Positions 1-28,574 are shown, counted from the first letter of the stretch. The stretch is 64,000 bases of DNA from Marsupella aquatica (GCA_973895155.1 OZ316893.1:6348963-6412962), one strand, 5' to 3'. Numbers and translations: made by a program. The notes: generated from the letters alone by a model not told the origin.

Positions 1-60
1 TGACGGAGGGGAATTGAACCCCTGATTGAGCATAAATCTCAATTTGCCAATCCGCCATCC
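1..60 (-). other. tRNA-like / tRNA-derived fragment (box A + box B), cut by the window edge
   Basis: Minus strand reads GGATGGCGGATTGGCAAATTGAGATTTATGCTCAATCAGGGGTTCAATTCCCCTCCGTCA. It has a box-A-like TGGCGGATTGG, a T-arm AGGGG-TTCAATT-CCCCT and a stem-loop ATTGAG-ATTTATG-CTCAAT. No proper D-arm. Confidence 0.35.
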
Positions 61-306
61 CCTACTCTACTCCCTCCCACTAACCCTACACATGCATCAC
101 ATACACACACAACAAACTACTTTTAATAAACAATAGTCAATTATATATCACAATTTACTCACACTTTGAATATATGTAGTCAAAGCTTGCAAGTCACTTG
201 CATCTAGTACATACACTTTGTCAACTGTCCCAGACTTCATTGTCAAGTTCACATTTATCAGCCTATTCATTAAAGTGTATTTTCTTTTGTTCACAAATCA
301 GTCTTG

Positions 307-386
307 AAATGTACACTTTCATGTCCCCAAATGTACACTTTAAGAAACCCAAATGTACACTTTTTGATCCCTAAATGTACACTTTA
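307..386. repeat. Four copies of AAATGTACACTTT at 22-bp spacing
   Basis: Copies start at 307, 329, 351 and 373; an inverted partial copy lies near 272. Confidence 0.8.
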
Positions 387-663
387 TAGGCCAAATCATA
401 TTAGTATTATATTAATAAATAATCTATATTATATTATTTATTAATTCACAAAGAATAATAGGATAGAGATCATTAGTTATTAATTCACAAAGAATAGTAG
501 GATAGATATCATACTTATGAGAACATTTCAGCACAAAGAAGCCCTTTAATTTGTGTGAACAAAATCATGACATAACTCCAAATAGATTATAAAATAATAT
601 ACAATTATCTCCAAATTTACAATGTATTTCTTCTATCTAAGGGGCTTAACATGAGTCAGATCT

Positions 664-1697
664 CTAAACAAAGTGCTCCTTACAATGTGTATTTGAGCAC
701 GTGCCCCTGTCTCCTTTACTATCTACCCTAGTGTCACGGTTGCAAGTCCCTTTATCTTCAGGGAGCTGAAACTTGGTGGTGTTGTTCCTAATGGCTATAA
801 TCTCCCGCAAAAAGTGTCTGGGATTTTCTCTATACGGACCTGAATAGTCTCGTCCTACAAATGCTTTAGCAAGTGAGGTGACAAGTGCATCGTCAAGTTC
901 TACCTCAGTACGTAAACTACATATACGATGCTTCACATTCCAAGGAATCTCATTGCTATTGAGGTCCAACACACTATGCGTAAACTGTGACTTCCAAATT
1001 TTTGTTGCACATCTCTTACTAAGTTGATCATAAGTAATTTCATTTTTTACCTTGTCTCTCTTTATGTTCAATAGAGACCACAGTGGAGAGTTCAGAAGAA
1101 GATAACATCTAATGTCACTTGCATGTGATAGTTTCTCAAGACAAGGCCAAAGAATTGTTAGAAGAAAATTATCTCCACGATTGGCATGCGTGTAGGGCAC
1201 TGGAAATAGTCCGGTGAATCTTGGGTTGGCAAATGCCTTAAGGGGGGAGTCATCCACAAGGAGGGTGTTGGTTTCATCATATAGATTTCCAAATCCACTC
1301 CATACCACCCGAAAATCCTTCAGTAGCACATTTGCCTTTCCGTTTGTAATGTCACGCCTTTGAATGCTTGTGTCAAAGGCTTCCACCTGTGTGAATACAA
1401 ACTTAAGTTTCAACCGCTCCTCAACAATGAACATCATGTTCAACATTTTCACTGTTCGCTGCACCCCAGCACATGTCCAAATCGCAACATCAAATTGGTC
1501 AAAAACCAACTTTAGAAACTCATGGAGCCCTGGCCTTTCTGTATACATGCGACTAATTCCATTTTTTCTATCCCAATGCACTCCACTTGGGATCACAACA
1601 TTTCTGGATTTGCCCTTGCTTTGGAATTCAACCGAATCCCAAAGTATTTTGTTAACATCCAAAATCAGCAATTTGCGCTTGATGGAAGGTCTTGGTT
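664..1697 (-). CDS. FCP1/NIF-family HAD phosphatase-like domain (probable last exon of gene A)
   Basis: RKLLILDVNKIL, RPGLHEFL...FDVAIWT, LLKDF..VW and YDETNTLLVDDSPLKAFANP match the FCP1-homology pattern (DxN variant). Acceptor ttgcag ends at 1698. Confidence 0.85.
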
Positions 1698-4356
1698 CTG
1701 CAAGTGCAACAAATACCAATCTTAGAGAGAAAACCACATTTGAAGTTTGGATAGAGATCGTCTCCATCCAAAAAACACAAGTGGCCAACCACAAAGAAAA
1801 TCTGCATACTGACCGTATTCATTGAGGAACCGTAACGAGGAAATGGATATCGATACTTATGCTCTAGTTGTTAGGCGCGCTTGAAGTAATTATACAGACT
1901 ATATTATATCAAATTGATAAGGTCCATATTCATCAATCAAGATATCATCACCGAGCTCCTGTTGGATCTCATAATTGACATCGGAGGTACTCTCCTCTAC
2001 CCAATAAGGTGCAGACCAAACTGGAGTTATCAATCCCAATTCTCCGCTTCTATAATCTGGATCTTTCTTATGCTTTTTGTAAGAGTCATTGTTCAAAATT
2101 GATTGAGCAGCATCCAATGGTACTTCGGTTCCTACATCTGGTCCACTTTTCCACACGTAACATCGGCAATCATATTCAAGTGACTTATATCCCGTTGATC
2201 CTACTCTCTTTCCTTTCTTTTTTGAGAGCGGAAGGATAACAGGACTTCTTGATTGTGACCGAACAAACACTAATTTGTCATCAGAAGCGGAAAAGAGTGT
2301 ATTAGGACAAATTGAAGCATCTGCCTGGTTGTCAGCAGTCGTGGATGCACTTGCTTCATTGACGGGAATGTCAGGTACTTGGATGGTCTCTGCTCTCAAT
2401 CCCAATGTGTCAAGTTCATTGGACTCACCATGCCTCTCCGCACCTTGATTGAGAAGGTTGTTTGAAGAAAGTTTCTCAAATGTATCAACTTCTGATTCTC
2501 TCATTTCCTCCATCTCTTGTCCAGGCACTTGTGGATGGAGACCATCTCTATCCAAGTTATCATCAAACTGGCCCTCGTTGGGGCCCATGGGGGCAACATC
2601 TGTAATTGGTGAACTACAAGGTGCAGATCCAACAATCATGTCATCTTCCACAAGGTCAATATCTTCACCCTCGCCAACTCGGTCATCCAAATTCTTCACA
2701 TATGCGCCCTCCGATGGCCCATCACCTTTGACTGATTGGTCAGCTCCATCTTCTTGATCACCATGCATCTGATTCATCATGAATAGAAACAGCGGCAGAA
2801 GAGGGTTCCCAATGTCTAGAACTTCCACCAACATAGCGATCATAACGATCTTTGATGGTGGGAACCCTCTCGCAAAGGAACGAAGCGTATGCTTCCAAAA
2901 AATGTCTCTCATGTTGAGAGTCACAATAAACAAAACATTCACGTTGAGAAAAAAGGAATGTCTTCATCACTTGACCGCCAGAGAAAAAGTCAAGAATCAA
3001 ATCCCCTGGTTCGGATAATGTTTGGATGATCTTTTGGATCATCCGGGTGGGTTTGGCATGAGGATTCACCCATCCACCACGAGCCCCAACAGTCTCAAAT
3101 TGAGGTGCCATGTGCAGAAGTATTGCCGCCTAGCTCTTCTGGGGTTATCACAATTCGTAGATCTTCATCCATTGACTCCTCGTCCGTGTTCTTTCCCTTC
3201 GTCGTTCCATTCCCTTTGATTTCTCAATGACAAAATCAGTATCCTTTTCACCATACACCCATTTTGGCTTCATTTGGTTGGGCTTGAACACTTCATCCCA
3301 ACTGACATTTTCTTCGCGAGAAATTCCGGCAAAGATAACTTCTTCTATTCCTCCCTTCCAACATGAGTCATGAGGGTGAGGTTGATCATCTCGAGAATAA
3401 CTCCCATACTCAATGTGAATGCTCAAAGTTTTTGAATGTCCTAATTTACGAAGAGCGCTTAGGACATTCCGTACAAGATAACCCGGATGGACAGTTATCA
3501 TCACAACAATGGTGGGATTCCGTGGTAGCTCTACTATATATTGGAAGAGGACCAAAATCTCTGCTTCAGTCCACTCCTTCTGTTGAAGTCGGCTGAAATC
3601 AACAATCGCAAGAGGGCATGTTGGAGATTGTTCTTCCAATGACTCCGGATCCACTGTCTTCATTAGATTGTTACTGAAAAATGTGACCCATGACTGAGTC
3701 CGAGAACTTGTCCCACCGCCAAACTTTTGATAGTAAATATCATCTAGACGCATCACCAATGTCATTGGCAATATCTCACTCTCCTTTGTATGATTAGACT
3801 TCAATAAATTTGTCAACCATACTTCACCAGCCGCTCTTCGGCACCTGTTCAACTCTGACTCGGCACTTAACAATGGGAGGACCTCAATTACTTTAACCCA
3901 TTGAGTATCTGCTGGGAAGTTTTTTGGATCCTTCTTGAAGTAGTAATCTCCAATAAGAGACTTCAATTTGATCAATATTTTCACCTCCTTTGCAAACTCC
4001 TCCATCGCTGGAACATCTAACTTATTTGTCGGATCCTTCTTCAATAAAACTTGACCTGACTTCACCTTGTTCAAAATTTTGGTCAAATCTCTATTTGAGA
4101 TTTCACCATCAAAACAACGAAACATTGCGACCGTTATTGCCTTTTCAGACCTTTTGTTTCCTTGTGTACCAGCTCCATCAGGAAGATTTCCATCAATCCA
4201 CATTTGGCACACTAACCGCCATAACTCAAAAAGATCATTCTCGGAAAAAAGCAACCAGTATACATTTTTCAAGTCTTTTCTCCCCATGGTCATCCTTGCC
4301 AGTGCCAAATAATCCTGCAATCAAAAATTGGGGGGAATGTTGTGAGTTATCTAAAT

Positions 4357-5335
4357 AAACCAAAAGTCACACTCTTGGACAGAGACCATCTCCATCCAAG
4401 TCAAAACCAAAAGTAGAATGAAGAGATATCTCTGGAACGGACGGTGACACTCTTGGACAGAGACCATCTCCATCCAAGTCAAAACCAAAAGTAGAATGAA
4501 ATAAAATCTCTAGAACGGACGGTCACACTCTTGGACAGAGACCATCTCCATCCAAGTCAAAACCAAAAGTAGAATGAAGAGATATCTCTGGAACGGACGG
4601 TGACACTCTTGGACAGAGACCATCTCCATCCAAGTCAAAACCAAAAGTAGAATGAAGAGATATCTCTAGAACGGACGGTGACACTCTTGGACAGAGACCA
4701 TCTCCATCCAAGTCAAAACCAAAAGTAGAATGAAGTAAAATCTCTAGAACGGACGGTCACACTCTTGGACAGAGACCATCTCCATCCAAGTCAAAACCAA
4801 AAGTAGAATGAAGAGAAATCTCTGGAACGGACGGTGACACTCTTGGACAGAGACCATCTCCATCCAAGTCAAAACCAAAAGTAGAATGAAGTAAAATCTC
4901 TAGAACGGACGGTGACACTCTTGGACAGAGACCATCTCCATCCAAGTCAAAACCAAAAGTAGAATGAAGTAAAATCTCTAGAACGGACGGTCACACTCTT
5001 GGACAGAGACCATCTCCATCCAAGTCAAAACCAAAAGTAGAATGAAGAGAAATCTCTGGAACGGACGGTGACACTCTTGGACAGAGACCATCTCCATCCA
5101 AGTCAAAACCAAAAGTAGAATGAAGTAAAATCTCTAGAACGGACGGTGACACTCTTGGACAGAGACCATCTCCATCCAAGTCAAAACCAAAAGTAGAATG
5201 AAGTAAAATCTTTGAAACGGACGGTCTCACTCTTGGATAGAGACCATCTCCATCCAAGTCATAACCGAAAATATATTGAACTAAAATCAATGTAACGGGC
5301 GGTCACACTCTTGGACAGAGACCATCTCTGTCCAA
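4357..5335. repeat. Array 1: ~12.5 copies of a 78-bp unit containing the imperfect palindrome TTGGACAGAGACCATCTCCATCCAA; fills intron 2 of gene A
   Basis: Unit starts every 78 bp from 4368 to 5304, inside intron 5356-4315. Confidence 0.95.
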
Positions 5336-6990
5336 ACAAGAAAATACGTTTCTCACCTGAAATTTCTGATTGTCTTGGGCGTTTGACTTGTTGTCCCCGT
5401 GCTTTGGCTTTCTTGGTGCTCCGCATTCAATGAATTGTTTCCTTGCATGAACAATTGTATCTTTGAAGCACGATTGAAACACCATCGTCGAATTGATGGC
5501 ATTTGATCTCATTGAGTGCTCAACCAATATAGCCGATGGTGTAAGGTCTGACAATAATCTAGACTTCCTGTATTTTAACTTTTTTGCCAACACTGTGAGT
5601 TTGGCATCAGTTTTGGCCCATTCGAGAACCCACTTGGCCGCCCTAGCCGAATGTTGCCCACTGATGGCAAAGAAACCAATCTCGCCTTTCTTCACACCTG
5701 CAAGAAAGTCTTTGCGGTCGTTCTCCGTGCTGTCAAAATGGAGCAACTTTCTAAGCTTTGGATTGTAAGGAAGCAGGTCCGCGACATGAGGTTCATGTCC
5801 AGGGTTTTTGACCATGGATTCGGCTATGTGCTTCACATGGGTACTATTGAGCATCCTGTAACATAATCTTGCCGGTGCAGGCATAATTTTCTCCACTGGA
5901 ATAGAAAACAGTTCATTTATCCCAAAAGTATAGTACTGCTCTATTCTTTGGAGAACATCATTTCCTTCTAAGACCTTTTTCTCCTCAGGGGCATCAAGTT
6001 TGTCTCCCTCATCTTCTGGGAGCATCTGTACTTCTGCAGGGGTTGACTGCACGATAGACTTGTCAGTCTTCTGTTTCTTCTTCCCTACTGGCTTCTTCTC
6101 GGGTTCCTTTGGCAGTGTCTCAATTTTCTCGTGCTCCTTGCTCTCTCTTTTTCTCCGCTTCCCTACCACTCTTTTGGTGCTTGTCCCAGTTCTTGTTCCT
6201 GCGGTCCCAGCTGTTGTTCTTGCAGTCCCTGTTGTCTCCTGGGATACTTTTGGTGGCTTGGGAACTTCCGTGTTCACAACTACTGGTGGAAGCTCTTTCA
6301 CCGCTACTGGTGGAACATTCGTCGGCTTGGGTAATCATCAAATGCAATGTTCTTGTCAAGCCAAACACTTAACTCTGAAGATAGGAAACCTGCCTTGTCA
6401 AGCAGATTATTTAAAACCCATATCACCGGGATTGTGTAATTCCCTTGGTTTTTATGGATATTTAGCTTCACATATTGGAAGCCATACATGATGTCGAGTG
6501 GAAGAATCCCCTTCACCCCTGCAATAACTTTCTGAGCTGAATATGATTTTGGGAAAAATCCCATTGACAACACGCCAAGTTCTCCAGCAGCAGACCACTC
6601 AATATTGAACTCGGAGGAATACGCCTTTGACGGAAGATGAAGTTTAACCCACCTTATTCTTTCATGGAGCTCAAGAATGACTGAAACAAATCCCCTTCCT
6701 TCAATTCCAACGAAGACTACAGGTCCAATTACAAGAGTCTCCCCTTCTGACGTTCTGACCTTTATGCACAACACGGGTTCCCGTCTCTTTGTTGTGCTAA
6801 GATAATCAAAATCAACTCTGGAGAACTCAAGGCCCCAACGGAAGTCTGGGTTGCTCTGCTCAACAAGACTCCCTCAGAACAATCTGCCTCTGAAATTGGT
6901 GGTTTCAATGCATTGAGAGTACTCCCTGAATTGCCACAACCATGCATAATTATTAGTTTTGTCATTGGAAATTTGGGGTTCTCTATAAGT

Positions 6991-7832
6991 TTGGACAGAG
7001 ATGATCTCTATCCGATTCTGACTAGAGGACACTCTCCCTTCCTTGGATAGAGATCATCCCTGTCCAACTGGACAGAGATGATTTCAGTCATAGGATATGA
7101 ATGATCTATATGCAATTACTAATACAAATCATCACTACCCTCTGCTTGGATAGAGATCATCTCTATCCAACTAAAAAGGGATGATCTCTATCTAGGCAGA
7201 TGATGGGGCAGAGGACGAGAAAGATCCAAAACCTTTTAAAAACTTTAAATCATCTCTACCCACTATGTGGATAGAGATCATCTCTATCCAACTAGACAGG
7301 GATGATCTCTATCCAAGTAGAGAATTACTAACATCTCTATCCAACTTTACTATCCTATGCTTGGATAGAGATCATCTCTATCCAACTGGACAAGGATGAT
7401 CTCTATAGACAGGATGGGAATGATCCGTATCGAATTACTAATAGAAATCATCACCATCCTCTACTTGGATGGAGATCATCTCTATCCAACTGGACAGGGA
7501 TGATCTCTATCCATAGACAGGATGAGAATGATCCGTATCGAATTACTAATAGAAATCATCACTATCCTCTACTTGGATGGAGATCATCTCTATCCAACTG
7601 GACAGGGATGATCTCTATCCATAGACAGGATGGGAATGATCCATATCGAATTACTAATAGAAATCATCACTATCCTCTACTTGGATGGAGATGATCTCTA
7701 TCCAACTGGACAGGGATGATCTCTATAGACAGGATGGGAATGATCCGTATCGAATTACTAATAGAAATCATCACTATCCTCTACTTGGATGGAGATGATC
7801 TCTATCCAACTGGACAGGGATGATCTCTGTCC
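6991..7832. repeat. Array 2: ~8 copies of a roughly 104-108-bp unit containing palindrome TTGGATAGAGATCATCTCTATCCAA plus a second adjacent copy; fills intron 1 of gene A
   Basis: Palindromes near 7043, 7146, 7268, 7361, 7465, 7573, 7681 and 7785, inside intron 7857-6983. Confidence 0.9.
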
Positions 7833-9143
7833 GGTGCCTAAAACTTGAGGTACTCACTTGGGTTGAGCAACTGAAAGGCTCTAGAATCCTCCAAGGCCGT
7901 GTCTACCACGTCCGCAATGGAGGAGAGATCCGTCTCCTCTGTTGGCTCTGTAGTCAAGTCCACTTGAATAGGCCTACTTGACTCCATATTTGAACACGTG
8001 GCAATCTGGACACGTGGCGGATCAAGGGGCGTTAGATCTAGGGCAACTAATGTGGCGGCGGTGGAGACTGAGTAGCAATGGAGGAGGAAGCAGAAGAGAA
8101 GCGGAAGCACATAGGAGGATCGAGATGAGCGAGAGGATCGAGCACAAGATGAGCAAGAGTAAGAGGAGCGCAACAGGAGCAAGAGTAGAGGAGGAGGAGG
8201 AGCGGAGGAGGAGGAGGAGAATCACAAGATGAGGAAATGAAGAATGAGGTCAAGAGAGGACCTCTTGCCTCCTTTACCCCCTCCCAGGGGGGAGGCCGAT
8301 GATGTACGGCCAATGATGTGAGGCCGAGGATGTACGGCCGACTATGTGAGGCCAAATGCAAAGTATGGCCACTAGTGAGGCGCAACCCTCAGACAAGCCC
8401 TAACCCTCCGCCGCTGGTGAAGGTCGATTGCGCCTTATCGCTTTGCCTCATCTTTGACAGCGAGAATTACGCTCCATCCCTCTTGAACAATGGTATAAGA
8501 ACCCCTCAAGCGACCTCATTGTTATTTTCCTTCTTAGATTTTCATTCAGTCTCTCAACGAGCTCCGTTTATTACGGAGCTCCAAACAAGAAGCCTTAAAT
8601 GATGAGTAACAAGCCCATACTTTAGGAACTCTAGCCAAAAAATCAGAAAAACAACAAAAAAGTCAAAAAAAGTGCAAAAATTAGCACCTATTTTAGAGCA
8701 AAAATATGGAGCGAACAAAATATGACATAAACTAGCTATGTTTTGACACCTAAAAATGACCAAATTCATCTGAAGTTACATTCCACCAATAAATGATCTC
8801 AAATACAACACTATTATCTACAATGGTCTCACAATTACACGAGGTGTCTTTTGAAACAACAACTAAATCACCTCCAAAAGCCATTGTCATTTAAAAACCA
8901 GAAAATAAATTACTACAACTTAACCTGATACACATTATTGTGAAAAGAAGACAAGGAGAATAGAAATGACACCATCTAATTGAACTGAAACACAACCCAC
9001 TAAGATAATATTAAACTACAAATTTCTCAAGAAACTTTAACCATGAATTCATGAATAAGTGGTAAAGGCATTTTGAAAATTTGTAAAATTTCAAGTTATC
9101 CATGTTTTTCAATGGTAATGTCACAAACAATACCTACTTTTCA

Positions 9144-12100
9144 TTACTCAGATCCAGAAGTCCTCAATTCTTGAAACGAAATATCCCTAGATTTATCTCC
9201 TAGCGGGGTTCTAGTTGATCCATTCTCTTGTTCTTGCTCTTTCTCTTCTGCCAAAAATTCAGTCAATCGGATTTTGATTCGATCTACTGTCTTTTTGTAC
9301 AATGTATCAGATTTTGTCAACATGAAGTTGTAAGCAAAAACAGTTGTTGAAGATAAATCAAGCTCTTGGTGAAACCATATTGGTTTCAAAGTTCCTTTCC
9401 CACGACCACTTTTCTTCTTTTCGTAGTTTAAGACTTCTGGTAAGTACTTGGCTTTCCAAGGATCTAACCCGGTTTTTGTAGCATGCCATAAAACATAAAT
9501 CATTTTTGGAATGTTGAACTCGTCGCGCTGGTCAATTCTTTCCACCTTGGCCACCCAAAATGTTTCCGATTCTTCTCCAGCAACAGAAATATAAGTGTTG
9601 ACTTCAAGATCCGAAAAGTCTCCTTCCATATTCTCCTTCTCTGCATCTATCTTTCCTTGATTCCGATAAGGACCCACGTATATATCTCTGGTAGGTCCGT
9701 ATACTCTCTCTTCAATTTCCTCTTCATTGACAAGGACTCTGGGAACTTCAGCAGCAACAGCAATCTCCCTTTGGGAGCGTGGCCATTGAAAAGGGAAAAT
9801 CAATGGTCTTTGATCAAGGAGCAAAGATTTATTCAATTCCCGTTACTCTTCAAAAAACATTCTCCACCAGTTCACTTCCTCTTCTGAGAATAAAGTTTCA
9901 ACTGCAAGTATTCCCTTTTGAATCTCATTTAACGAATCATCCATCTCTTTCAAAGTCATTCTTGAAGAACTAGACATATTTGGTTGAGTCCTTGTAATGT
10001 TCTTATCCCCCTTTTTGAAAAGGGGTAATCCAGGAGCACAACCCATCACCTTTTCTGGCTCCTCTTCCCTCAAAAATTTCACGCCTCCGTCAGGTTTCCA
10101 AGTTGAGTCCGTGGAAAACTTCTTCCCCCATTGGGTTGGAACTTGATTTTCCAACTTGTCAAATGCAAATTTGTACTGGTGGTGGAAGGTAACATTTCGA
10201 ATCCTTTCAATGACTAAAGGTGGATCTGAGAAGGCATATTGACGGAAATCATATGTTTCCTTTAAAAGAGTGATATTTGGTTGGGGTTGATATGATTCAC
10301 AAATAATATCACATAGGCTTTCGTATGTGAATGCCTTAAACCTTGCTAGTCGTTTAGAAAATCGACTGAACATTTGATCTATTTGGTCGTGTGTGTGTCC
10401 AACCAACAAGAATCCTAGTTTGATTTTCCGAAAAACCTTTCTTCGAATCAACATATGAAGATAGGCAAAGAGTAAATTATTTTTATTTTCTCTACTGGTA
10501 TTATCAAGTTGAAGATAGAGAACAGGCGGCAAGCCACCAGGCTTTTCTTCCCATTCGTGAAACACCCTTTGCAGGATTGTGACTGTCAAGTTTCCATCAT
10601 TATGCAATACAGGATAATTAAGAAACACTCTTGAAAATAGTGCACCATTGAAAACCAGGCATCCGACAACGTGCATTTGGATCAAACATGTTTCGTCCAC
10701 CGATTTTGGGGGCCGCGGCCAATGAGGCAACCTTGTCTTCTTCTGATCCATCCCATCAATGACAACTCCCAAATATTTATCAGAATTTGAAAAACATTTC
10801 TTATGATGCTTCGCGAGTTTCTCACGTTCTTTGGATTGTTGGTCTCTATGTTTTTGTAACATAATTTCCCCTCGCCCTGGAAAAACAACTTGTTAGTTTC
10901 TTCAAAAAAAATTAGAAATCATGTGTTAAGCCATATTCTTGAAACAAAAACTTGTCAAACTTGTAAGTAACTTACTCTTTTCGGTCTCCGAGATAGCTTT
11001 GTCACGAATTGATTTGAACTCCTCGCAATCCGCGCAAGCACTGAATCGATTTACTGGAGGAATCTTCACATGACCAAATTCTTGAACCCAAACTTTCAAG
11101 AATTGTCGATAGGATATTTTTGATGATTCATCAATCTTGGCATAGTTGGAGTCGTAGATCTTCCATACCTCCAGCTTTGAATAATTATCCGGTAAATGTG
11201 AAACTTCTTTATTTGGCAATGTTTCCACGCGTGTCTCAAAAAATGACCTAAGCCAACTGACCAAGACTAATCTTTTAACAGATGGAGGGCGTCCAACTGG
11301 TTTAGAATATCCTAAGTCTTGGTTGTCTAATTTCAAAATTCTATTTAATCTATGATTGCCAACGCAAAATATAAGCTTGAAAGCTTTCCGACAAATACTC
11401 TTTTGACCAAACGTGTAAGATATAGTCTGCCTCCCTCCTTCATTTCCGTCTCGCTTTATAAGCCACTGCAAAGATAAAGATCGATCCTGAGATTTCTGCC
11501 TCAAAAATTTAGAACGCGCCTCACGAATTTCTTTTGGAGATAGACTTAGGAGACAATGACTCTGACAACAGTACTTACTATTTGTTTTCTTGATATCCTC
11601 CTCTTTCAACTTTGTTTCACACAAAGTGGCGTTGCTCGTACGTTTGTAACGACTAGATGCCACCGGAACATCATCATCCTCCCCACTCTCCGAAGACTCG
11701 CTTTCATTGGATGATGAAATGGTCACCAACATTTGCTTCTGAACATGCCTAGATTCCAGACCTGCAGCCTCCGGAGATGGAGGCTCTTCCTTCACTCTAT
11801 GCAGCCTTGGAATACCTGGGCGTATTTCAGAAATCCCTCCATTACCGTGTAGGGACCCTTTCAATATTTTCCTAGGGTCCCTCTCCACCAGGTTCGTTTC
11901 CCTGTTTGAGTTTCCGTGACTTGATCCGCTCCCTGCCCCAACACCATGACTCCTAGGTAAAACTGAGGAACGCACATTAGAATTCTTTTCTGGAATACTT
12001 TTCAATAACACTGGTCGTCTAGTTTCTTCCCTCATCCCCCTGTGAAATGTTTCCGACGTTGGCTTACCAAAGGTTTTACTTTTTGGCATTTGCTTTAGCC

Positions 12101-12795
12101 GCTGAACACTTTGGAGACTGCAAAAATCTCTGTCATTTTCCCCACTTAGTGCCTTCTTCGTCTTTCCAAATCCAGTCTTCATAAATTCATGAGACCGTTT
12201 CCCAGACATCCAAATAGGCATTGAACCTTCCAGATTACTCCCCAATTTGTCCTTTGTTGGTGACAAAGGAGATACAACTTGACGTCCATGGGGACCAATA
12301 CTCTCCAAGGAGTCAGAGGAGCTCCCTGACCTCTCTTTACCACCGACCAATGATTTCTTCCCACTAATTGCAAGCTCGGGGGGGTCACTTCCATGGAAGT
12401 GACATATCATGTGCGACGAAGTATAGGGCCATTTAAATGGTTTTGGCGGAAGACTTATTAAGTCTTCTATGGAAATATAGGGTTGTTTAATTGCAAAATG
12501 CATACGTGTCATCACATGATTGGTGTCGTACAACTTTCTAGAAAGTGACTTAGGGGGGTCATAAATGACCCAAACCGTCGCACGTGATGTATGACCCTTC
12601 ATATAGTGACCCCCCCGAGATTGCAAGTCGTAAAGGACTACGTTTTAACTTGCTCATAGGGGTGGGGGGTGGCATATCTAAAACAGTAGTTATTCCAGGG
12701 ATATCTGGGCCAACCACTGTGCAGGGGCCATCCGGCAATGAAACATCATCAGAAACTCCATCTGAATAATCATCTGATTCGTAACATGCCGCCAT
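9144..12795 (-). pseudogene. Sola-like (DUF7869-type) DDD transposase with Cys-rich N-terminal region and an SH3/Tudor-like C-terminal extension; MITE-interrupted, one nonsense codon
   Basis: Motifs IDGMDQKKTRLP, LYLQLDNTSRENKN and FLLVGHTHDQIDQMFSRFS; Cys motifs CCQSHC, ICRKAF and CADC. Intron 10975-10877 keeps frame. In-frame TAA at 9845-9843 joins the 9144-9836 ORF. Removing the MITE plus one TSD (253 bp) restores the frame from ATG 12795. Confidence 0.8.
12375..12619. mobile_element. MITE copy 1 (245 bp), TIRs CTCGGGGGGGTCACT / AGTGACCCCCCCGAG, 8-bp TSD ATTGCAAG
   Basis: TSD at 12367-12374 and 12620-12627. Near-identical inverted copy at 20790-21037. Confidence 0.95.
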
Positions 12796-13341
12796 TCGAA
12801 AAACTAGTGCAAATTGACAAGAAACTCAGAAAATCAGTAAAATCTAACAAATCTTCTCAAAATAATGACCAAGAGTCATGAATAAACGAGCCTATTTATA
12901 GTTTTTCACGGATTGTTGTGACTTTTTAACTTCAAAAATATCAAATATTCATGAAATTTGCAAGCTTTTTCACGTTAATATCCCAAAATATTCATGAATA
13001 ATTAGCCCGAAAACATTGATTTATCATGATTCGGGGTTAATTTTACTAAGTCGCGCCTGATCCGTGATTAGTATGTATAACCAAGGAACACGGGGCAGCC
13101 CATTCATTTTCACTCAATGTCATTTGGATTTCCTTTGTAAAAGAGTGAAAAACAATCTCGTTGTCCAATTTCGTGCCATTTTCAGCACTCATCGGCGACG
13201 TGTCGCGAGTTGTCGCGGTCGCACTTCATTTCGACCCTGTTTTAGGTAGTAATTTAGGCCCTGGGTGATTTCTTCACGTCACCCCCCCCCCTCCGAACCC
13301 TATTTTAAATAGCCTTCTGCATCACCGAGGTGTACAAGAAA

Positions 13342-13413
13342 AGAGAGAGGAGACTCCCTTCATGAATTCATGAAGGTCGGAGCGAGAGGGAGACTCCCTT
13401 CATGAATTCATGA
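13342..13413. promoter_or_regulatory. Direct duplication carrying the palindrome CCTTCATGAATTCATGAAGG in the divergent intergenic region between the transposase and gene B
   Basis: Two copies of GAGACTCCCTTCATGAATTCATGA 40 bp apart. A regulatory role is inference only. Confidence 0.4.
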
Positions 13414-13578
13414 TAGGAGTCCTGGGGTGGTCGAGAGCGTTGTTAGATCCGTAAGGACACGGCTTTAGTAGCCATTTATTGGCACATTCCTTGGTTCTGT
13501 GGCACTTTGTCTCGCAGGTTGGGGTTGAAGTGGACTGATTTTGTGGTATGTTCTCAGGTTTGAAGATCAGGCAAAAAC

Positions 13579-16500
13579 ATGACAATGTCGCAAGAAGAGC
13601 TGGTGGATGACATCTTTTCGCGCCATCCTTTGACGGACTTCCACAACTCATCCTGGACAATTTCCTTAGGGACGGAAACATGGAAGAAGCCCTTCCTAAT
13701 GCTGTGTGTATTTGAGGGGCTTCCATCGGGGGCATTAGGGTGGGTAAATTACGGCCGCATCGATGTATTTCGACGGGGCGACGAAGTTGTGAACATGTTG
13801 ATCACAACGAAGGAAACATCAACTTTGATTGTCGTGGATGTGGAGAGGTTTTCTGGAACGGCTGCCACCTGCTATCTCGATGAGGACATCGATAGCATCA
13901 TTGAGACTGTCAAGTCTCTTTTGAGTGAGGAACGTTACCACGACGTCGCGGGAAAGATTTCCAGTTTTGTGTTCGAATTTCACGCTAGCACTTTAAAGAG
14001 TGCAATCCAAAAATCAAGAGAGATTCTCCGGAAAAGGTCGGCAGAGAAGGGGGTAAGTCGTACACCCAAATCTGGGGCTTCCGGTGTTCCTTCTGGATCC
14101 AGGCCTAGCATTTTACCCAATGATATTTTGACCGTGGTAGCGCCTACAACCTCCCGGGAAGCAGCAGCATCTGGAGGGGGATCTCAAGTTGGCAGATCAT
14201 CCCAGGGAACGGCTTTGACTGGTGGGTCGGCACAAGGTACGACTGGAACTCGCATTTCTTCAAAGAAGCGACCTGCTATGACTCCTGAGCCTACCGAGCC
14301 CAGTGCTACAAAGTCAAAAAAGAAGACTTTGGAGAAAATTCCAACGCATTTGGAGCAAAAGGCTCAATCAATGTCAATGGATGCACGGGTATTGTACCAG
14401 GAGGAGATTCTGGGAAGATGTGGTGTTCAAGAGGAGACCGTGACCGTTGACATTGGTCAACTTTACCCTCCAGTGAGAGAGAAGGCTGTGGGCTTGCCCA
14501 TTTACCAGGTCCGACACATCCAACCATATTTCTTGACCCAATTGACCTTGCGGATGAAGACTGTAGGTGCCAGTCCACTTGCAGCTCCGTTTGTCCTCTT
14601 GGTGGATCCAAAGGAGTGTGCTACTAGGCAAGACTTTGATTTTTCAAGGAAAGCTGATTACCATTATTATGTGATTGGGGGCAACCATTCAGCCTGTGCC
14701 AAAGCAGACCTTGCTCTTCAGTTCCCTAACAACAAGGCATTTCGGAGAGTGCAATCTTGGATATTTGCGGGATTGAGTGTGCAAGAGGCAAGAAACCTGG
14801 CGTGGAGTCACAATATTGATTCTGAATTTCGACAACAGATGACGACAATCCAGAGAGTAAATTATATTCACATGAGATTTGTTGAGAATGGATTGTCGTC
14901 CAACCAGGATTTCAAGAAAGAGTGTGCTACTGAAATCAATCTCAAGGATTGGGGTGTACGAAAGGATGCTGAGGTTCTTAATGCCAATGATAACCTATTT
15001 CAGTTGGCATTCCGACAAGATCCTGTGTGGTCATTTGTGAGGCAGATTTGTGACAAGTGGGAGATGTGTGAGATCAAAGGTCAAAAAGGAGACAAGGGCA
15101 AGAAGAAAGTCTTTAAGTCTGGAGATGCCAAATTGCCTTATGAGGACATGAAATTAACAGAGTGGAGACACATGCAGGCCTTGAAAGATCCTGATATGAT
15201 TTGCCCAGTGTTACAGAGAGTTCTTACTAAAGAACTCTCTTTACAAGAAATGGGTCACGAATTTACTCGACACAAATTTCAGATGCAGGTGCAGAAGGCC
15301 TTCCTCACATGTCTACACGAGGAGAGTTGGTCAGGTTGTAAAACCAAGTACCCTGAGCATTGCACAGACAATGTGCTTAAGAATTTTGTACCTATTTTCC
15401 AGACATGGGTAAGATTCTGTCACCTTTCTTCGAATGATTGTTTGAATTCATTTAATATTTGGAATCCTTGTTTCTAATTCTACAGTTCCTTTTTGTAGAA
15501 AGATACCACCTCCCGGAAAAAGAAGGGAGATGAGGAAGGCAAAGATCTCAAGTCATTCCCGGAAAAATTCAATGCGCATATTGTGCAAGCCCAAAATTGG
15601 CTATCCATGAAGACTTCTAGTCGGCAAACCCAAGAGGGGGAACTTCATCCAAATTCGTTTGAGCATCCAGAGTTTGGTGATGTGCACTATGATATTTTTA
15701 CTCATGATGCTCAGCAATTACATGAGGTGGTTCCGGGTCAGGCTTACACATTAGCTTTAGTGGATATTCCCTACGGGTTTGCATTGCCTGGATGTCTTCA
15801 TGAAGACACTATTGGATGGGGAACTGAGGAGATCACAAAAATGGTCCAATCGTTCAAGGTGGCTACTACTGCAAAGTTGTGGCGTATTATCATTCACCAC
15901 AGCCTTGACCAATATGAGGCCATCAAGACCGTTTTGAAAGCGGAGTGTAATGGAGGGTTCCAGAATTGTGTGTGGTAAGAAATATTTGTTTTTGAAAAAA
16001 ACAACTATTAGTTATTCATGATTTCATGAACCATGTTTCTCAGTTTAAATAACTCCTTGACTTTTTGTGACTTTTCAGGGTTAAGGATAATGTGAAGAAT
16101 GCTGGTGGACCAAGATTGAACAACAACTTTGAGTGCTTTACAATTGGCTTTCACAGCCAGGATGGTAAACGGTCATTGGAGCACTTCAATTTTGACACAA
16201 ATGAATCAAGGAACAATGTGGTTGTATGCGCAATTGTGACTAAGAAGCTGAAACACAACGGGGATAACAAGGCAGTGAATGTTTATCAGAAACCACGTGC
16301 ATTGTTAGATTGGGAAGTGAGTCATTTTAGTCAGGTTGGAGACTGGGTTTTGGATATTTGTTCATGATCAGGGACTGGGACAACCTCCTCCTTGGCCATG
16401 GGGAGACATTGCGTTGCCATTGAGATTGACGAGCGACAGAGCAGTGTGTTGAAAGGGAGGATTCTTAACCTTGCAGATAACATTGAAGAGGAAGACGGAC

Positions 16501-16640
16501 AGGGGGAGATGGATGAGGAGAGTGAGGAAGACATTCCTCAGGCCGGAGAGGATAGCGTGGTTGACGATGCCACAATTGTTCCAGAATTGACGACAGGGAC
16601 TTCCGGAACCGAGGAAGGGGAAGCGGTCCCTTTGGATTAG
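13579..16640 (+). pseudogene. Gene B: three-exon fusion of ParB/Srx-like domain and beta-class N6A/N4C DNA methyltransferase (~955 codons), with a single TGA in the SAM-binding loop
   Basis: Exons 13579-15408, 15499-15974 and 16079-16640, all in frame through canonical GTAAG..AG introns. ParB-like YYVIGGNHSACA; motif IV LALVDIPYG; VWVK..FE; YQKPRALL..FSQVGDWVLDICS*SGTGTT..GRHCVAIEID. Motif IV before motif I is the beta order. Confidence 0.88.
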
Positions 16641-17320
16641 ACTAGATAAATAGAGGGACTCGTAGCATTTGAAACCACTTGGGCTTAAGTTGGGTTATAT
16701 TTTGTAAAACTTTGAGTTTGACTTAAACTCTGATCGATGAGTTTGATTTTGATTACTTTTATAAAGTGCATATTTCAAGGTTTATACAATTGTGAGAATA
16801 TCATATAAGATATGCTTAGATTTTGGTGGTAAAATTCTCTTGAGTCTAGTTTGGAAAATACATACCATTTTTTGGTGGTTTTTTGGTATACATTTTTTAA
16901 TATCATGAAGATTTTGAAAAGAGAAATAAGGCTTTGGACTCATCCCTTAAGGCTTCTTGTTTCCATTGAGAAACTTTGGAATTTATAAAGAACCGCCAAA
17001 CATCCAGTTTTAACCTCTCCTCTTTTATTTTAGATATATGCAAGAAAATTTGTTCCTTCTACACTATTGAAGCATCTAGTTAACCAGCTTACATATAGCT
17101 ACCCTTCAACACTATATTTTAGTCATTTGGTTGACTAGTAAAATGATAGCATAAAGTCAAGTGAGTTTGGGGTTCAAGAATCATTTCCAATACAGGTAAC
17201 TCTCAATTAATTGCTCCATTGAAAAATATTCCATTGATATTTGCAAATTTTGAAATCATATAACTAAGTTACCTAGTGTTGTCTGATTTTGTTGAATTGA
17301 GAAGATCCTAGTGAAACTCA

Positions 17321-19024
17321 GGATAGGGATCATCCCTATCCACCATTTGGATAAGGATTTTATTGTCTAGAGATCAAGTCTACTTAAATACTTGCATTGT
17401 CCTTGTCAGCTGTTTGGATAGGGATCATCCCTATCCACCATTTGGACAGGGATTTTATTGTCTAGAGATCAAGTCTACTTAAATACTTGGATTATCCTTG
17501 TCAAGTGTTTGGATAGGGATCATCCCTATCCACCATTTGGACAGGGATCTTACTATCTTTAGATCAAGTTCACATACTTGGATTGTCCATGTCTGCTGTT
17601 TGGATAGACATGATCCCTATCCTCCACTTGGACAAGGATGATCCCTATCTGCCTTTTGGACAGGGATCATCTCTATCCGCCATTTGGGCAGGGATCATCC
17701 ATATCCGCTATTTGGACAAGGATCATTCCTATCAACCATTTGGACAGGGATCATTCCTATCAACCATTTGGACAGGGATCATCTCTATCCGCCATTTGGA
17801 CAGGGATCAGCCCTATCCACCATTTGGACAGGGATCATCAATATCAGCCATTTGGACAGGGATCATCCCTATCAACCATTTGGACAGGGATCATCTCTAT
17901 CCACCATTTGGACAGGGATCAGCCCTATCCGCCGTTTGGACAGGGATCATCAATATCCGCCATTTGGACAAGGATCATCCCTATCAACCATTTGGACAGG
18001 GATCCTCTCTATCCGCCATTTGGACAGGGATCAGCCCTATCCGCAGTTTGGATAGGGATCATCAATATCAGCCATTTGGACAGGGATCATCCCTATCAAC
18101 CATTTGGACAGGGATCATCTCTATCCGCCATTTGGACAGGGATCAGCCCTATCCGCCGTTTGGACAGGGATCATCAATATCAGCCATTTGGACAGGGATC
18201 ATCCCTATCAACCATTTGGATAGGGATCATCTCTATCCGCCATTTGGACAGGGATCAGCCCTATCCGTCGTTTGGACAGGGATCATCTCTTTCAGCCATT
18301 TAGACAGGGATCATCTATATCCACCTTTTTGGACAGGGATCATATGACCCTGGCTATCCATCATGTAGACAGGGATCATCCTTGTCCGCAATTTGGACAG
18401 GATCATCCCTATCTGTCTTTTGGACTCTATCATCTCTATTCGCCTTTTGGACAGGGATCATCTTCATTCGCCGTTTGGACAGGGATCATCCCTATCCGCC
18501 GTTTGGGCAGCGATCATCCATATCAGCTATTTGGACAGGGATCATCCCTATCAACCATTTGGACGGGGATCATCTCTATCCGCCATTTGGTCAGGGATCA
18601 TCCCTATCTATCGTTTGGATTGGGATCATCTATATTAGCCATTTGGACAGGGATCATTTCTATCCACATTTTTGGACAGGGATCATATAACCCTATCCAT
18701 CATGTAGACAGGGATTGACCCTGTCCACAATTTGGACAGGATCAACCCTATCTATCTTTTGGACTCTTTCATCTCTATCCGCCTTTTGGACAGGGATCAT
18801 CTTCATCCGCCATTTGGATAGGGTTTATCCCTATCCAATATTTAGACACTCACGGATCATCCCTATTAACCGTTTTGGACAACGATCATCCGTATCCGCC
18901 TTTTGGACACGGATCATCCCTATGCATTTTCACGACAAGGATCACCCTATCCAGCATTTGGGCAGGGATCATCCCTATCCGGTGTTTGGACAAGGATCAC
19001 CCTATCCTCCATTTGGACAGGGAC
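17321..19024. repeat. Array 3: satellite built on the GGAYAGGGATCATCCCTATCC palindrome; ~89-bp units, then 28-bp units with a 4x28 (112-bp) higher-order repeat, decaying rightwards
   Basis: TTTGGACAGGGATCA recurs every 28 bp from ~17750 to 18300, with cycling variants TCCC/TCTC/GCCC/TCAA. Confidence 0.95.
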
Positions 19025-19177
19025 ATGTGACATATGACAAAGATGCATGCTGATCACCAAGAACTAACATAGCAGACACTCGGTCCAATGGATTAATTGC
19101 CTTCTTGCCATTGTGAGGTGGGTCTTGGTCTCCAAAACCATATAGATCTCCATTTGGAAGTATGGACACTGAGTATT
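19025..19177. repeat. 153-bp direct duplicate of 20500-20652 (internal transposase segment)
   Basis: ATGTGACATATGACAAAG...ACACTGAGTATT is present at both positions. Confidence 0.9.
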
Positions 19178-24089: not shown

Positions 24090-24707
24090 CTCCTAATACT
24101 CCTTACAGACCTCACAGTAATGTCGTGGACATATAAGAGCATCGGGATGTGCATCAGGGTTATCTGGATGGCGAGTGAGAGGCATTTCCCCCAAACGCAG
24201 AAGTAGTCAAAGACAGCCCACATGGTAAAAAGAGTAGCAGTCATCATGAGAACACTGGACCACAAGGGGCTCGTCTGTGCTGGGTCTCAAGGTTCTGCCA
24301 AGAAGTCCACAACCAAAACATCTTCCTCTGTTTTGCTGACAGAGGTCACAAAGCCAAGCTGCAGCCCAATCATGTCCTCTGGAAATGACAATGCACTCAC
24401 ATGTAGGTCCATGGCCATCTTCTTCATTGGGGTTGTGGCCATCAACTACATAATGAAAATGGCGACCACAAGGGCCATCACAGAACAAAACAGTTCCTCC
24501 CTCATCACATTGAAAACAACAAGAGGGATCCATACGAAGGTGCTCCCTATGCCCAAATCTTGGATCTAGCAACTGACGAGCAATGTGTGCCATGCTGAAC
24601 AAGATCTGCAAAATTACCTTCAAAAATTGGGGGCAGGCATGTGATGTACCAAAAGGAGCAACAGTCCACCAGCAATCACAGCCAGTAGCCTCCACCAGGG
24701 GCATCAC
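24090..24707 (-). pseudogene. NSD/EDM2-type tandem PHD-finger protein fragment (transposon cargo)
   Basis: CFQCDEGGTVLFCDGPCGRHFH...WLCDLCQQNRGRCFGCG...VVQCSHDDCYSFYHVGC, then after a frame break LICPRHYCEVC. The Cys/His spacing matches NSD1/EDM2 PHD clusters. Confidence 0.75.
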
Positions 24708-28309: not shown

Positions 28310-28574
28310 GAAGGTGCCACATGTGCCAATTAGCAACTGCCACATGTCGCATGAAAATGTTATACATAAAACCCCTAACTTACCTAGACGCCTTCCATGG
28401 AAGGCAACCCTATTTATTGGGGCCTATAGTTCTTAAAAGTTGACGAGATAATAAAACAACCCCTATTGTTCTTCCACGAATCTTTGGAAGTCTTCCGCCC
28501 AACCCAATTAAAAGGGCCTATACTTCTTCGCACGTGATGGGTCACTTCCGCGGAAGTGACCCCCCCCCCCCGAG
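28310..28574. mobile_element. Right terminus of a large element related to the MITE (GTCACTTCCGCGGAAGTGACCCC...CGAG)
   Basis: Diverged homology to the MITE end (AACAACCCCTA, AAGTCTTCCGCC, CCTATACTTC, terminal palindrome). It abuts a truncated copia gag at 28575. Confidence 0.8.

What the first reader, a model, noticed from the sequence alone, without database searches (positions are those of the whole stretch)
300..19024. Candidate giant DNA transposon encoding a paired ParB-DNA methyltransferase system with its own palindromic site arrays
Seen in sequence: within 19 kb lie a Sola-like transposase, two intron-containing ParB-like + beta-class amino-MTase paralogues facing away from each other, an FCP1-like phosphatase domain and three arrays of one palindrome. 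Established knowledge: ParB proteins load on palindromic parS sites; ParB-MTase fusions occur in phages and prokaryotic mobile elements; beta-class MTases usually act as dimers; horizontally acquired beta-class 4mC MTases are known in bdelloid rotifers and Marchantia. Inference: this is a selfish element with a bacterial-derived, eukaryote-adapted load-and-mark module that binds its own arrays and writes 6mA or 4mC, possibly for self-marking or escape from host silencing. I do not know of this combination being described as a unit.
Basis: partly seen in the sequence, partly recalled or inferred. Interest (0 to 1): 0.95.

Follow-up and report, generated by a model that had tools for sequence, protein, structure and literature searches.

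The report
Nested transposons with private DNA palindromes
This is not one giant transposon but an 8.4-kb jumping gene inserted into a second repeated element, likely in a liverwort-type plant; each element carries its own bacterial-style gene for a predicted DNA-binding methylase (catalytic motif present in one, absent in the other) and only its own DNA palindrome, which that protein likely recognises, a design already proposed for algae.

Summary
The parts are real, but the single paired unit is not. An 8,378-bp Sola-type transposon (8584-16961; 15-bp terminal repeats, 4-bp TCCA duplication) is inserted here, and three sequencing runs hold the empty site. It carries the transposase and gene B: ParB fold fused to a beta-class amino-methyltransferase with a DIPY motif. 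It holds none of the array palindromes. Its own palindrome, TCATG-N4-CATGA, sits at the same promoter and intron positions in 2 of 3 related loci. The three arrays, gene A and the phosphatase-like ORF belong to a separate, more diverged multi-copy element, cut off at 19025. Gene A is 16% identical to gene B in the methylase part and lacks the catalytic motif in 4 of 4 family members. Both copies are broken. Likely mechanism (inferred): each family's ParB-like protein binds its private palindrome; B then writes 6mA on its own DNA, while A only binds. A ParB-methylase gene on a Sola1 element is published for Ectocarpus (PMC12477816), and ParB with arrays for red algae. This scan found both families before, elsewhere in this genome and in another. 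What this locus adds is the two palindromes excluding each other side by side.

The parts
8584..16961 (.). Inner element: Sola-type DNA transposon (family B), 8,378 bp including a 253-bp MITE insertion
   Evidence: Joint 8579->16962 skipping 8,382 bp with 4 shared letters in 3 of 4 runs; TIR and TSD seen in the sequence; flat depth of about 480-900 in X1 across the span, apart from three higher bins (11332-11643 and two at and beside the MITE), against 88 and 191 in the two bins to its left
8584..8598 (+). Left TIR (15 bp perfect, 22 of 24 bp), preceded by TSD TCCA at 8580-8583
   Evidence: only two exact copies in the window
16947..16961 (-). Right TIR, followed by TSD TCCA at 16962-16965
9144..12795 (-). 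DDD transposase gene (DUF7869), two exons, 1,099 codons when the MITE is skipped; broken here by the MITE and by one stop at 9843-9845 that the laid runs do not share
13579..16640 (+). Gene B, 955 codons in three exons: N-terminal beta domain, linker, ParB/Srx-like domain (aa about 280-415), helical region (about 420-610), beta-class amino-methyltransferase (DIPY at 15763; motif I near 16350-16380), acidic tail. Stop at 16365-16367 not shared by the laid runs
13360..13413 (.). Pair of family-B palindromes TCATG-N4-CATGA, 40 bp apart, upstream of gene B; likely binding sites of gene B protein
   Evidence: Same pair, 42 and 40 bp apart, in L001 and L002; flanks and the central 4 bases diverged
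16016..16029 (.). Family-B palindrome in intron 2 of gene B; further sites at up to 1 mismatch at 9041, 12179 and 15138
   Evidence: A site lies in the same intron in L001 (3215) and L002 (4375)
12375..12619 (.). 245-bp MITE with an 8-bp TSD, inserted in transposase exon 1
   Evidence: Joint 12366->12620 in 3 of 4 runs; many different flanks and 5-15 times higher depth; second copy at 20790-21037
1..8579 (.). Outer element (family A), left part; left end not found in the window
   Evidence: Repeat-level depth from position 1 to 4360 in X1-X3, with more diverged contigs than for the inner element; no TIR partner found
16962..19024 (.). Outer element, right part, with array 3; broken at 19025 by a different element
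   Evidence: Joined to 8579 in the empty-site contigs; junction
1899..7987 (-). Gene A: spliced ParB-like / helical / methylase-fold gene lacking the catalytic motif (DFSR at about 3600; shortened motif I at about 2991). Broken by stops at 3130-3150 and a 4-bp insertion at 2762. Exon structure between 6326 and 7857 is uncertain; the ParB fold is supported by profile match only
664..1818 (-). NIF/FCP1-like HAD phosphatase-like ORF downstream of gene A (separate gene or last exon; not resolved)
   Evidence: Pfam NIF E 6e-15; HAD-IIID E 1e-15, below its cut-off
4369..5335 (.). Array 1: 12.4 units of 78 bp, one family-A palindrome each, filling an intron of gene A (4315-5356)
6991..7834 (.). Array 2: about 108-bp units with paired palindromes, behind the donor site at 7857 of gene A exon 1
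17319..19023 (.). Array 3: 95-bp units, then about 50 units of 28 bp; it lies about 1 kb upstream of gene A once the insertion is removed
1747..1771 (.). Single family-A palindrome at the start of the NIF ORF; another at 2531-2555 inside gene A's acidic tail

Best explanation
The locus is an 8.4-kb Sola-type transposon inserted into a second multi-copy element, and each element likely uses its own ParB-like accessory protein to recognise a palindrome found only in its own family. SHOWN: the nesting, the two gene sets, the motif status of the two methylase domains, and that neither element carries the other's palindrome. INFERRED, step 1 (about 0.7): gene B protein binds TCATG-N4-CATGA as a dimer through the helical region behind its ParB domain, at the promoter shared with the transposase and in its own intron; gene A protein binds the 21-25-bp palindrome amplified in arrays. 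Step 2 (about 0.55): the tethered gene B methylase writes N6-methyladenine at or near these sites; gene A protein cannot, and acts as a binding or scaffold protein, possibly with the phosphatase-like domain. Step 3 (about 0.4): this keeps the family's own promoter expressible against host silencing, as VANC does for VANDAL, rather than repressing it. ParB-style CTP clamping and sliding is possible but not supported, because the box II arginine (recalled motif) is a histidine across the family. The outer element is probably a truncated copy of a larger Sola family whose transposase was lost at 19025; that identity rests on earlier scan notes, not on my calls. Both copies here are dead, but the majority contigs of family B lack both stops and the MITE.
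For: Empty site in 3 of 4 runs, with TIR and 4-bp TSD. The termini AAC...GTT and a TSD ending in A match the supplement row for Sola1-1_Ec32. Mutual exclusion: family-A core at up to 4 mismatches gives 61 sites in the outer 10.6 kb, 0 in the inner 8.4 kb and 0 in the other 45 kb; the family-B 14-mer at up to 1 mismatch gives 6 inner, 0 outer and 1 in the other 45 kb. CATG-N4-CATG counts are 4, 3 and 6 in the inner element, L001 and L002, against shuffle means of 0.15, 0.08 and 0.11 (0 of 500 shuffles reach them each time), and only the 4-base spacing is enriched. Site positions are conserved while flanks diverge. ParB and Noc are the 7 of 7 Foldseek hits at E<=0.001; VIA Z 9.5 (rmsd 2.9, 96 aligned) to PadC. 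The family profile finds M.RsrI, M.MboIIA, DpnA and CcrM at E 8e-12 to 6e-10, and N4CMT only at 1.5e-3. DIPY and intact motif I in L001 and L002. The transposase and gene B homologues R1sor_010795 and R1sor_010796 have adjacent locus tags in Riccia; L002 has a divergent ORF whose first 21 aa are 15 identical to the transposase start.
Against: No binding, methylation or expression data. The helical region matches ParB-family DNA-binding domains only weakly (KorB Z 4.3, SopB Z 3.7, among unrelated rows of equal Z). Only 1 of 4 Riccia ParB-type genes looked up has an adjacent tag in my partial transposase list. L003 (1.2 kb, nearly all exon 1) has no palindrome. The L002 transposase identity rests on 21 low-complexity residues. 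The central 4 bases differ among relatives, so a host dimeric factor could read the conserved half-sites. The ends and the transposase of the outer element were not found. The single-sequence model of gene A's ParB region failed (pLDDT 39), and the atlas score was only 0.81.
Confidence: 0.6

Rival explanations
1. One reading: one giant transposon whose gene A and gene B products work as an active/inactive methylase heterodimer (like METTL3/METTL14) loaded on the arrays. It could survive only as a cross-family interaction in trans.
For: A dead and a live beta-class domain lie side by side. Beta-class methylases are often dimers (recalled), and PMC4738411 section 8 describes inactive partner domains. 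The B element landed in the A element's upstream region.
Against: Own TIR, TSD and empty site for the B unit. No array palindrome inside it. A-B identity 15.6%. L001, L002 and the Riccia pair show gene B with no sign of gene A in the DNA or tags seen. One nesting event in a repeat-rich region needs no special cause.
Confidence: 0.07
2. The palindromes are transposase- or host-factor-binding sites, and the ParB-methylase genes are cargo acting elsewhere (for example on host DNA or single-stranded intermediates).
For: The half-sites are conserved while the proteins are 48-56% identical. DpnA-type relatives can act on single-stranded DNA (PMC4738411 section 8). No direct binding test exists.
Against: The sites are not subterminal. 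They lie in gene B's promoter and intron, and in gene A's introns. Each palindrome follows its accessory gene. The same adjacency is reported for PAG3 in red algae.
Confidence: 0.18
3. The accessory protein binds its palindromes as an autorepressor or copy-number limiter (like KorB or Noc) rather than as an anti-silencer; any methylation would tune its own promoter.
For: The conserved site pair lies 180-220 bp upstream of gene B's start codon, inside the bidirectional promoter. KorB is among the fold matches (Z 8.1, rmsd 10.3, 151 aligned). A catalytically dead family still keeps arrays.
Against: Amplification of sites into intronic tandem arrays resembles VANC targets (PMC5735166 section 9) more than an operator. 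A repressor would not need a conserved methylase active site.
Confidence: 0.15

Closest known systems
Sola1-1_Ec32 of Ectocarpus (PMC12477816; passages, reference entries and supplement rows seen, figures not seen)
   Same: Sola1 element with an opposite-strand gene for a ParB-like domain plus N4/N6 DNA methyltransferase, proposed to bind and modify its own sequence. Termini AACCG-CGGTT and a 4-bp TSD biased to end in A, against AACAAG...CTTGTT and TCCA here.
   Different: 21.5 kb with a 282-bp TIR in a brown alga, against 8.1 kb (without the MITE) and a 15-24-bp TIR in a likely bryophyte. The passages read define no binding site, no dead-methylase family and no phosphatase. Sequence homology to the Ectocarpus protein was not tested.
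Plavaka PAG cassette of Bostrychia and other red algae (10.1101/2025.02.11.637652; passages and section 8 read)
   Same: ParB-domain accessory gene next to tandem arrays of inverted repeats in giant DNA transposons; an N6-adenine methylase domain in the cassette; the same self-binding proposal.
   Different: There ParB is fused to a 2OG oxygenase (PAG3) and the methylase to a SET domain (PAG2), on EnSpm/Plavaka elements. Here ParB and methylase are one protein on a Sola-type element.
VANC/VANDAL anti-silencing system of Arabidopsis (PMC5735166; abstract and section 9 read)
   Same: Family-specific motifs in introns and upstream regions that amplify as tandem repeats and differ between related elements. 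Likely works alike.
   Different: VANC sits on other elements, has DUF1985/DUF287 domains and has shown hypomethylation activity. Nothing here is shown experimentally, and the protein is of another kind.
Bacterial ParB/Noc/KorB with parS-type palindromes
   Same: Fold of the ParB domain with a conserved pocket (R in 56 of 61, GGxH histidine in 82 of 85, N in 85 of 89), followed by a helical region; palindromic sites.
   Different: The box II arginine (recalled) is a histidine, there is no ParA, the protein is fused to a methylase, and the gene has introns.
Beta-class amino-methyltransferases M.RsrI, M.MboIIA, DpnA, CcrM; eukaryotic N4CMT (PMC8885841, passages) and Marchantia 4mC enzymes (search listing and start of abstract only)
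   Same: Motif IV ahead of motif I; N6_N4_Mtase domain in a eukaryote.
   Different: A D-x-P-Y motif as in N6A enzymes, not the SPPY of N4CMT. N4CMT and M.PvuII score far lower than the N6A enzymes. Transposon-borne rather than a host gene.
DUF3723 (PF12520) fungal proteins
   Same: Best language-model look-alikes of gene B aa 270-610 (0.95-0.97).
   Different: No alignment or E-value, so a lead only. Their link to fungal Starship elements is recalled; one search found no paper naming both DUF3723 and ParB.

Membership tests
Sola superfamily (inner element) | DDD transposase | tested here: met
   DGMD, LDN and GHTHDQIDQ in the window; such motifs in 47, 57 and 48 of 58 homologues. Definition from PMC10741241. 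That these three aspartates are the catalytic triad is recalled.
Sola superfamily (inner element) | 4-bp target site duplication and TIRs | tested here: met
   TCCA on both sides, 15-bp perfect TIR, empty site with 4 shared letters
Sola1 group (inner element) | Transposase grouping with curated Sola1 references | not testable with these tools
   No Repbase sequences are held; the termini resemble Sola1-1_Ec32
Sola superfamily (outer element) | Transposase, TIRs, 4-bp TSD | tested here: inconclusive
   No second Sola transposase in the window (6 queries). Left end at or beyond position 1; right side broken at 19025. Earlier scan notes describe 13-kb Sola copies with such cargo (unchecked).
   Internal TIR/TSD-bounded insertion and empty site; no boundary at 300; no inverted-repeat match over 12 bp between 1-700 and 16962-64000
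ParB/Srx superfamily (gene B) | ParB/Srx fold | tested here: met
   Foldseek: Noc and ParB at E 1.6e-5 to 8.8e-4; VIA Z 9.5 PadC (rmsd 2.9, 96 aligned), Z 7.4 sulfiredoxin (rmsd 3.2, 84 aligned)
Canonical ParB CTPase clamp (gene B) | Arginine motif GxxRxxA (recalled) | tested here: not met
   GGNHS in the window; histidine in 82 of 85 family rows. A different but conserved pocket remains.
Canonical ParB CTPase clamp (gene B) | HTH domain that binds the palindrome | tested here: inconclusive
   KorB domain Z 4.3 (rmsd 4.5, 108 aligned) and SopB Z 3.7 (rmsd 4.4, 106 aligned), tied with unrelated rows. Binding cannot be tested with these tools.
ParB/Srx superfamily (gene A) | ParB/Srx fold | tested here: inconclusive
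   Profile match E 7e-4, above 200 shuffles; hhalign probability 6% over 33 columns; failed single-sequence model; atlas 0.81
Beta-class amino-methyltransferase (gene B family) | Catalytic (D/N/S)PP(Y/F)-type motif IV ahead of SAM-binding motif I | tested here: met
   DIPY and motif I in the window (stop not shared by other copies), L001 and L002; D-x-P-Y/H in 13 of 165 proteins scanned, most of them fragments; PDB hits
Beta-class amino-methyltransferase (gene A family) | Catalytic motif IV | tested here: not met
   DFSR, DFSQ, DFSR and DFGR in the window, P0163, P0164 and P0165, 4 of 4; motif I shortened by one residue in the 2 of 4 that reach it
N4-cytosine enzymes of N4CMT type | SPPY motif | tested here: not met
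   DIPY in the window, L001 and L002; definition in PMC8885841
VANC-type anti-silencing system | Protein binds family-specific motifs and removes silencing | not testable with these tools
   Only the motif layout can be compared

The most novel reading that the evidence does not exclude
Land-plant Sola transposons run a diversifying address system: each family's ParB-like reader and palindrome co-evolve, and active families write bacterial-type 6mA on their own DNA. Families with a dead methylase (type A) amplify their sites into arrays and borrow the active enzyme of type B as a heterodimer partner. B would then be drawn to open A promoters, as at this locus: a transposon-encoded, programmable adenine-methylation system with a parasite of its own.
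Probability: 0.08. Interest if true: 0.9.

Novelty: new variant of a known kind. Interest (0 to 1): 0.5.

Why it matters
A ParB-guided self-marking role for such accessory genes has been proposed from domain content in algae; the passages I read report no test. This locus gives testable parts: a defined 14-bp candidate site at conserved positions in three lineages, a second family with a different site and a consistently dead methylase, and a natural control, since the nested elements do not share a single site. The majority contigs of family B lack both stops and the MITE and differ from this copy by under 1% in X1, so working copies probably exist. If the enzyme proves active, this would be a transposon-encoded 6mA writer in land plants and a second solution, after VANC, to family-specific escape from silencing. 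The score is held down because the design is published, the claimed paired unit is an artefact of nesting, and both copies are broken.

Tried and rejected
(1) Whole-genome search: no genome is held, so copy number and family-A ends could not be mapped; contig depth is no copy number. (2) Viral or prokaryotic copies: none for gene B in viral contigs or genome contigs, none for the A-family protein P0165 in viral contigs, and no exact A palindrome in viral contigs. These searches use short exact patterns and are weak negatives. (3) Expression: no RNA holder listed. (4) Rfam: 0 matches in 1-24000. (5) The element at 19025-23400 as the outer element's mover: rejected as unproven. It has no A palindrome at up to 5 mismatches, a much lower CpG ratio (0.26) and a rearranged junction; Pfam gives no family, and its P-element-like look is recalled from motifs. 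(6) CpG observed/expected as a sign of protection from 5mC: 0.46-0.92 in both elements, against 0.26 for the neighbour, 0.49 for Copia and 0.58 for the RB gene; confounded by age and not used. (7) GAATTC inside the B palindrome as an M.RsrI-like target: rejected, because the core is CTAG in L001 and ATTT/ATAT in L002. (8) Fold of gene A's ParB region: the model was too poor to search. (9) Complex prediction of A with B: not run, because the methylase domains are split by introns or broken here and only stand-ins from other hosts were available. (10) The tree (20 rows, P0018 left out for lack of motif IV, two rows under half filled, midpoint root, no prokaryotic rows) shows only that A and B are far apart; it says nothing on donor or order of events. 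(12) Look-ups of earlier findings by relatives, sequence and near place were empty. (13) Literature: searches found no paper on this design in land plants. Iyer 2011 (cited by PMC12477816 for green-algal cases) was not read, subscription papers are not searched, and bioRxiv supplements are closed (Bostrychia Supplemental Table 6 may bear on this).
Full report
HOST AND SETTING. No genome is held for the window. It is eukaryotic plant DNA: an RB_A domain gene at 38898-39830, Copia-type ORFs and short TTTAGGG runs. The nearest named homologues of gene B and gene A are from Calypogeia fissa (48% and 43%) and those of the transposase from Riccia sorocarpa. A liverwort-type host is therefore inferred.

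OBSERVATION. All named parts exist. Pfam gives DUF7869 for 9843-10892 (E 1e-51), NIF for 664-1818 (E 6e-15), and N6_N4_Mtase for 2758-3129 (E 3e-6) and, weakly, 16071-16367 (E 0.07). Three arrays share one palindrome. A 25-bp copy finds 63 sites at up to 6 mismatches, all below 19100, and 0 in each of 5 simulations.

THE REGION IS NESTED. Contigs of four runs laid on 7900-17250 show a joint from 8579 to 16962 that skips 8,382 bp with 4 shared letters, in X1, X2 and X3 (shorter side 51, 20 and 24 letters) but not X5. The sequence explains it: 8584-16961 begins and ends with a perfect 15-bp inverted repeat (22 of 24 bp) and is flanked by TCCA twice. In X1 the depth is flat at about 480-900 across this span, apart from three higher bins (11332-11643 and two at and beside the MITE), against 88 and 191 just left of it. 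The long X1 contigs differ by under 1% (10 letters in 1,821). The stops at 9845 and 16365 are not shared by the laid contigs of any of the four runs, and the MITE at 12375-12619 is skipped in three. With the MITE skipped, the transposase reads 1,099 codons with one stop, and gene B reads 955 codons with one stop. So the inner element is a young, dead copy of a family whose majority sequence is open. A DDD transposase and a 4-bp TSD define Sola (PMC10741241 passage; motifs).

The rest (1-8579 plus 16962-19024) is a second repeat. Depth is at repeat level from position 1 to 4360 in X1-X3, and the longest contigs differ mostly by 3-12%, so 300 is no boundary. At 19025 the sequence switches to a 153-bp duplicate of 20500-20652 belonging to another element. 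No second Sola transposase lies in the window and no terminal repeat was found. Earlier scan notes describe intact 12-13-kb Sola elements with the same cargo in this genome. I could not check these, and use them only to name the likely parent.

GENE B. The AlphaFold model of exon 1 (14-row alignment, mean pLDDT 71) has an N-terminal beta domain, a disordered linker, a ParB/Srx domain and a helical region. All 7 Foldseek hits at E<=0.001 are Noc or ParB. VIA ranks PadC (Z 9.5), KorB, serine kinase, pNOB8 ParB and sulfiredoxin first; the helical region matches KorB and SopB DNA-binding domains only at Z about 4, and the N-terminal domain matches PH folds at Z about 4. In a profile of 111 of 162 homologues plus gene B, the pocket is conserved (R 56 of 61; GGxH histidine 82 of 85; N 85 of 89), but the arginine of the ParB box II motif (recalled) is a histidine. 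The C-terminal part has DIPY before motif I. A 16-sequence family profile finds M.RsrI, M.MboIIA, DpnA and CcrM at E 8e-12 to 6e-10, N4CMT at 1.5e-3 and M.PvuII at 0.97, and phage methylase families match the homologues. DPPY marks N6A and SPPY N4C enzymes (PMC8885841 passage), so 6mA is the likelier product. The family is wide: 234 representatives at E<=0.001, and 8 of the 53 long ones scanned carry N6_N4_Mtase. Of 30 looked up, 8 are Chara, 4 Riccia, 4 Adiantum, 1 Ginkgo, 2 Ptychodera, 2 sea anemones, 1 Clastostelium and 8 unnamed.

PAIRING WITH THE TRANSPOSASE ELSEWHERE. The best transposase hit is R1sor_010795 and a top ParB-methylase hit is R1sor_010796. That is 1 of 4 Riccia genes checked against a partial list, and the orientation was not seen. 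In L002 an ORF runs head-to-head with gene B and shares 15 of its first 21 residues with the transposase; the catalytic part lies off the contig.

GENE A. It has the same layout but is only distantly related. Of 162 B-family proteins, 2 hit it by tblastn. Its two successive exons match the family profile above all 200 shuffles, and its methylase part is 15.6% identical to gene B's, while B is 66-67% identical to L001/L002 and 26-37% to fern, Ginkgo and Chara proteins. Motif IV reads DFSR, DFSQ, DFSR and DFGR in the window and its three homologues, so the loss is a family trait. This copy also has stops at 3130-3150 and a 4-bp insertion at 2762 absent from other copies.

PRIVATE PALINDROMES. 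The A core (21 bp, up to 4 mismatches) occurs 32 + 29 times in the outer element and 0 times in the inner element, even at 6 mismatches. Arrays 1 and 2 fill introns of gene A, and array 3 lies upstream of it once the insertion is removed. CATG-N4-CATG counts of 4, 3 and 6 in the inner element, L001 and L002 exceed all 500 shuffles each, and only the 4-base spacing is enriched. In all three, a pair 40-42 bp apart lies upstream of gene B; the half-sites are 23 of the 24 invariant columns, while flanks and the central bases differ. One further site lies in intron 2 in all three. L003, nearly all exon, has none.

MECHANISM. Shown: nesting, folds for B, motif status, site positions and exclusivity. 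Inferred: dimeric binding of each accessory protein to its own palindrome; adenine methylation by B; a binding-only role for A; and a benefit through keeping the family's promoter active, by analogy with VANC, whose motifs amplify as tandem repeats in introns and upstream regions (PMC5735166 section 9). Autorepression, and binding by the transposase or a host factor, remain open. Nothing here shows clamp loading or sliding.

COMPARISON WITH WHAT IS KNOWN. PMC12477816 describes Sola1-1_Ec32 with an opposite-strand ParB-like/methyltransferase gene and proposes self-binding and self-modification, citing green and red algal cases. Its supplement row gives AACCG termini and a 4-bp TSD ending in A. 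The Bostrychia preprint describes ParB-domain PAG3 beside arrays of inverted repeats. PMC4738411 (passages and section 8) lists other eukaryotic N6A clades but not this one in what I read. The inner element is thus a land-plant member of a published design, and the outer a variant with a dead methylase and a phosphatase-like partner. Searches found no land-plant report; this library lacks most subscription papers. The scan itself noted both families repeatedly on other DNA, which is not independent support.

VERDICT. Observation partly confirmed; interpretation partly supported; new variant of a known kind; interest 0.5.

Noticed in passing
window 12375-12619, 20790-21037, about 28450-28575: A MITE family of about 245 bp with C-rich/G-rich termini and 8-bp TSDs. 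Two near-identical copies and one diverged piece lie in the window; depth is very high and flanks are many in the runs. The two TSDs share a TGCAA word, a possible target preference.
   Followed up: partly
window 19025-about 28150 (-): Another decayed large element: transposase-like ORFs with P-element-like motifs (recalled; no Pfam family), followed by PHD-finger (E 5e-6) and BRCT (E 1e-3) ORFs at 24207-25923. Low CpG; ends not defined; 153-bp internal duplicate at its junction with array 3.
   Followed up: partly
window 13579-14050 (gene B aa 1-157): A well-predicted N-terminal beta domain (pLDDT about 90) with only weak PH-fold matches (Z about 4). It may be a chromatin or protein reader added in this plant clade.
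   Followed up: partly
P0142, P0116, P0161, P0104, P0120, P0071: Homologues occur in a hemichordate, sea anemones and an amoebozoan, some with degraded methylase motifs and one fused to a SAM domain. The best language-model look-alikes are fungal DUF3723 proteins, which suggests that DUF3723 is ParB-like.
   Followed up: partly
window 8559-8582: The inner element inserted at the edge of a short hairpin (9-bp arms) in the outer element's upstream region.
   Followed up: no
L002 283-360: Family-B palindromes also lie inside the putative transposase coding sequence, and near-copies recur as an H-D-I-M peptide word.
   Followed up: partly
window 307-387: 3.7 copies of a 22-bp unit with the highest depth of the left part in X1 and X2; possibly subterminal repeats of the outer element.
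   Followed up: no
window 52287-58853: A Copia-type element with identical 457-bp LTRs and long open gag and pol frames: a very recent insertion.
   Followed up: no
window 38898-39830: A long exon-like ORF with a retinoblastoma-related RB_A domain (E 2e-64), probably the host RBR gene.
   Followed up: no
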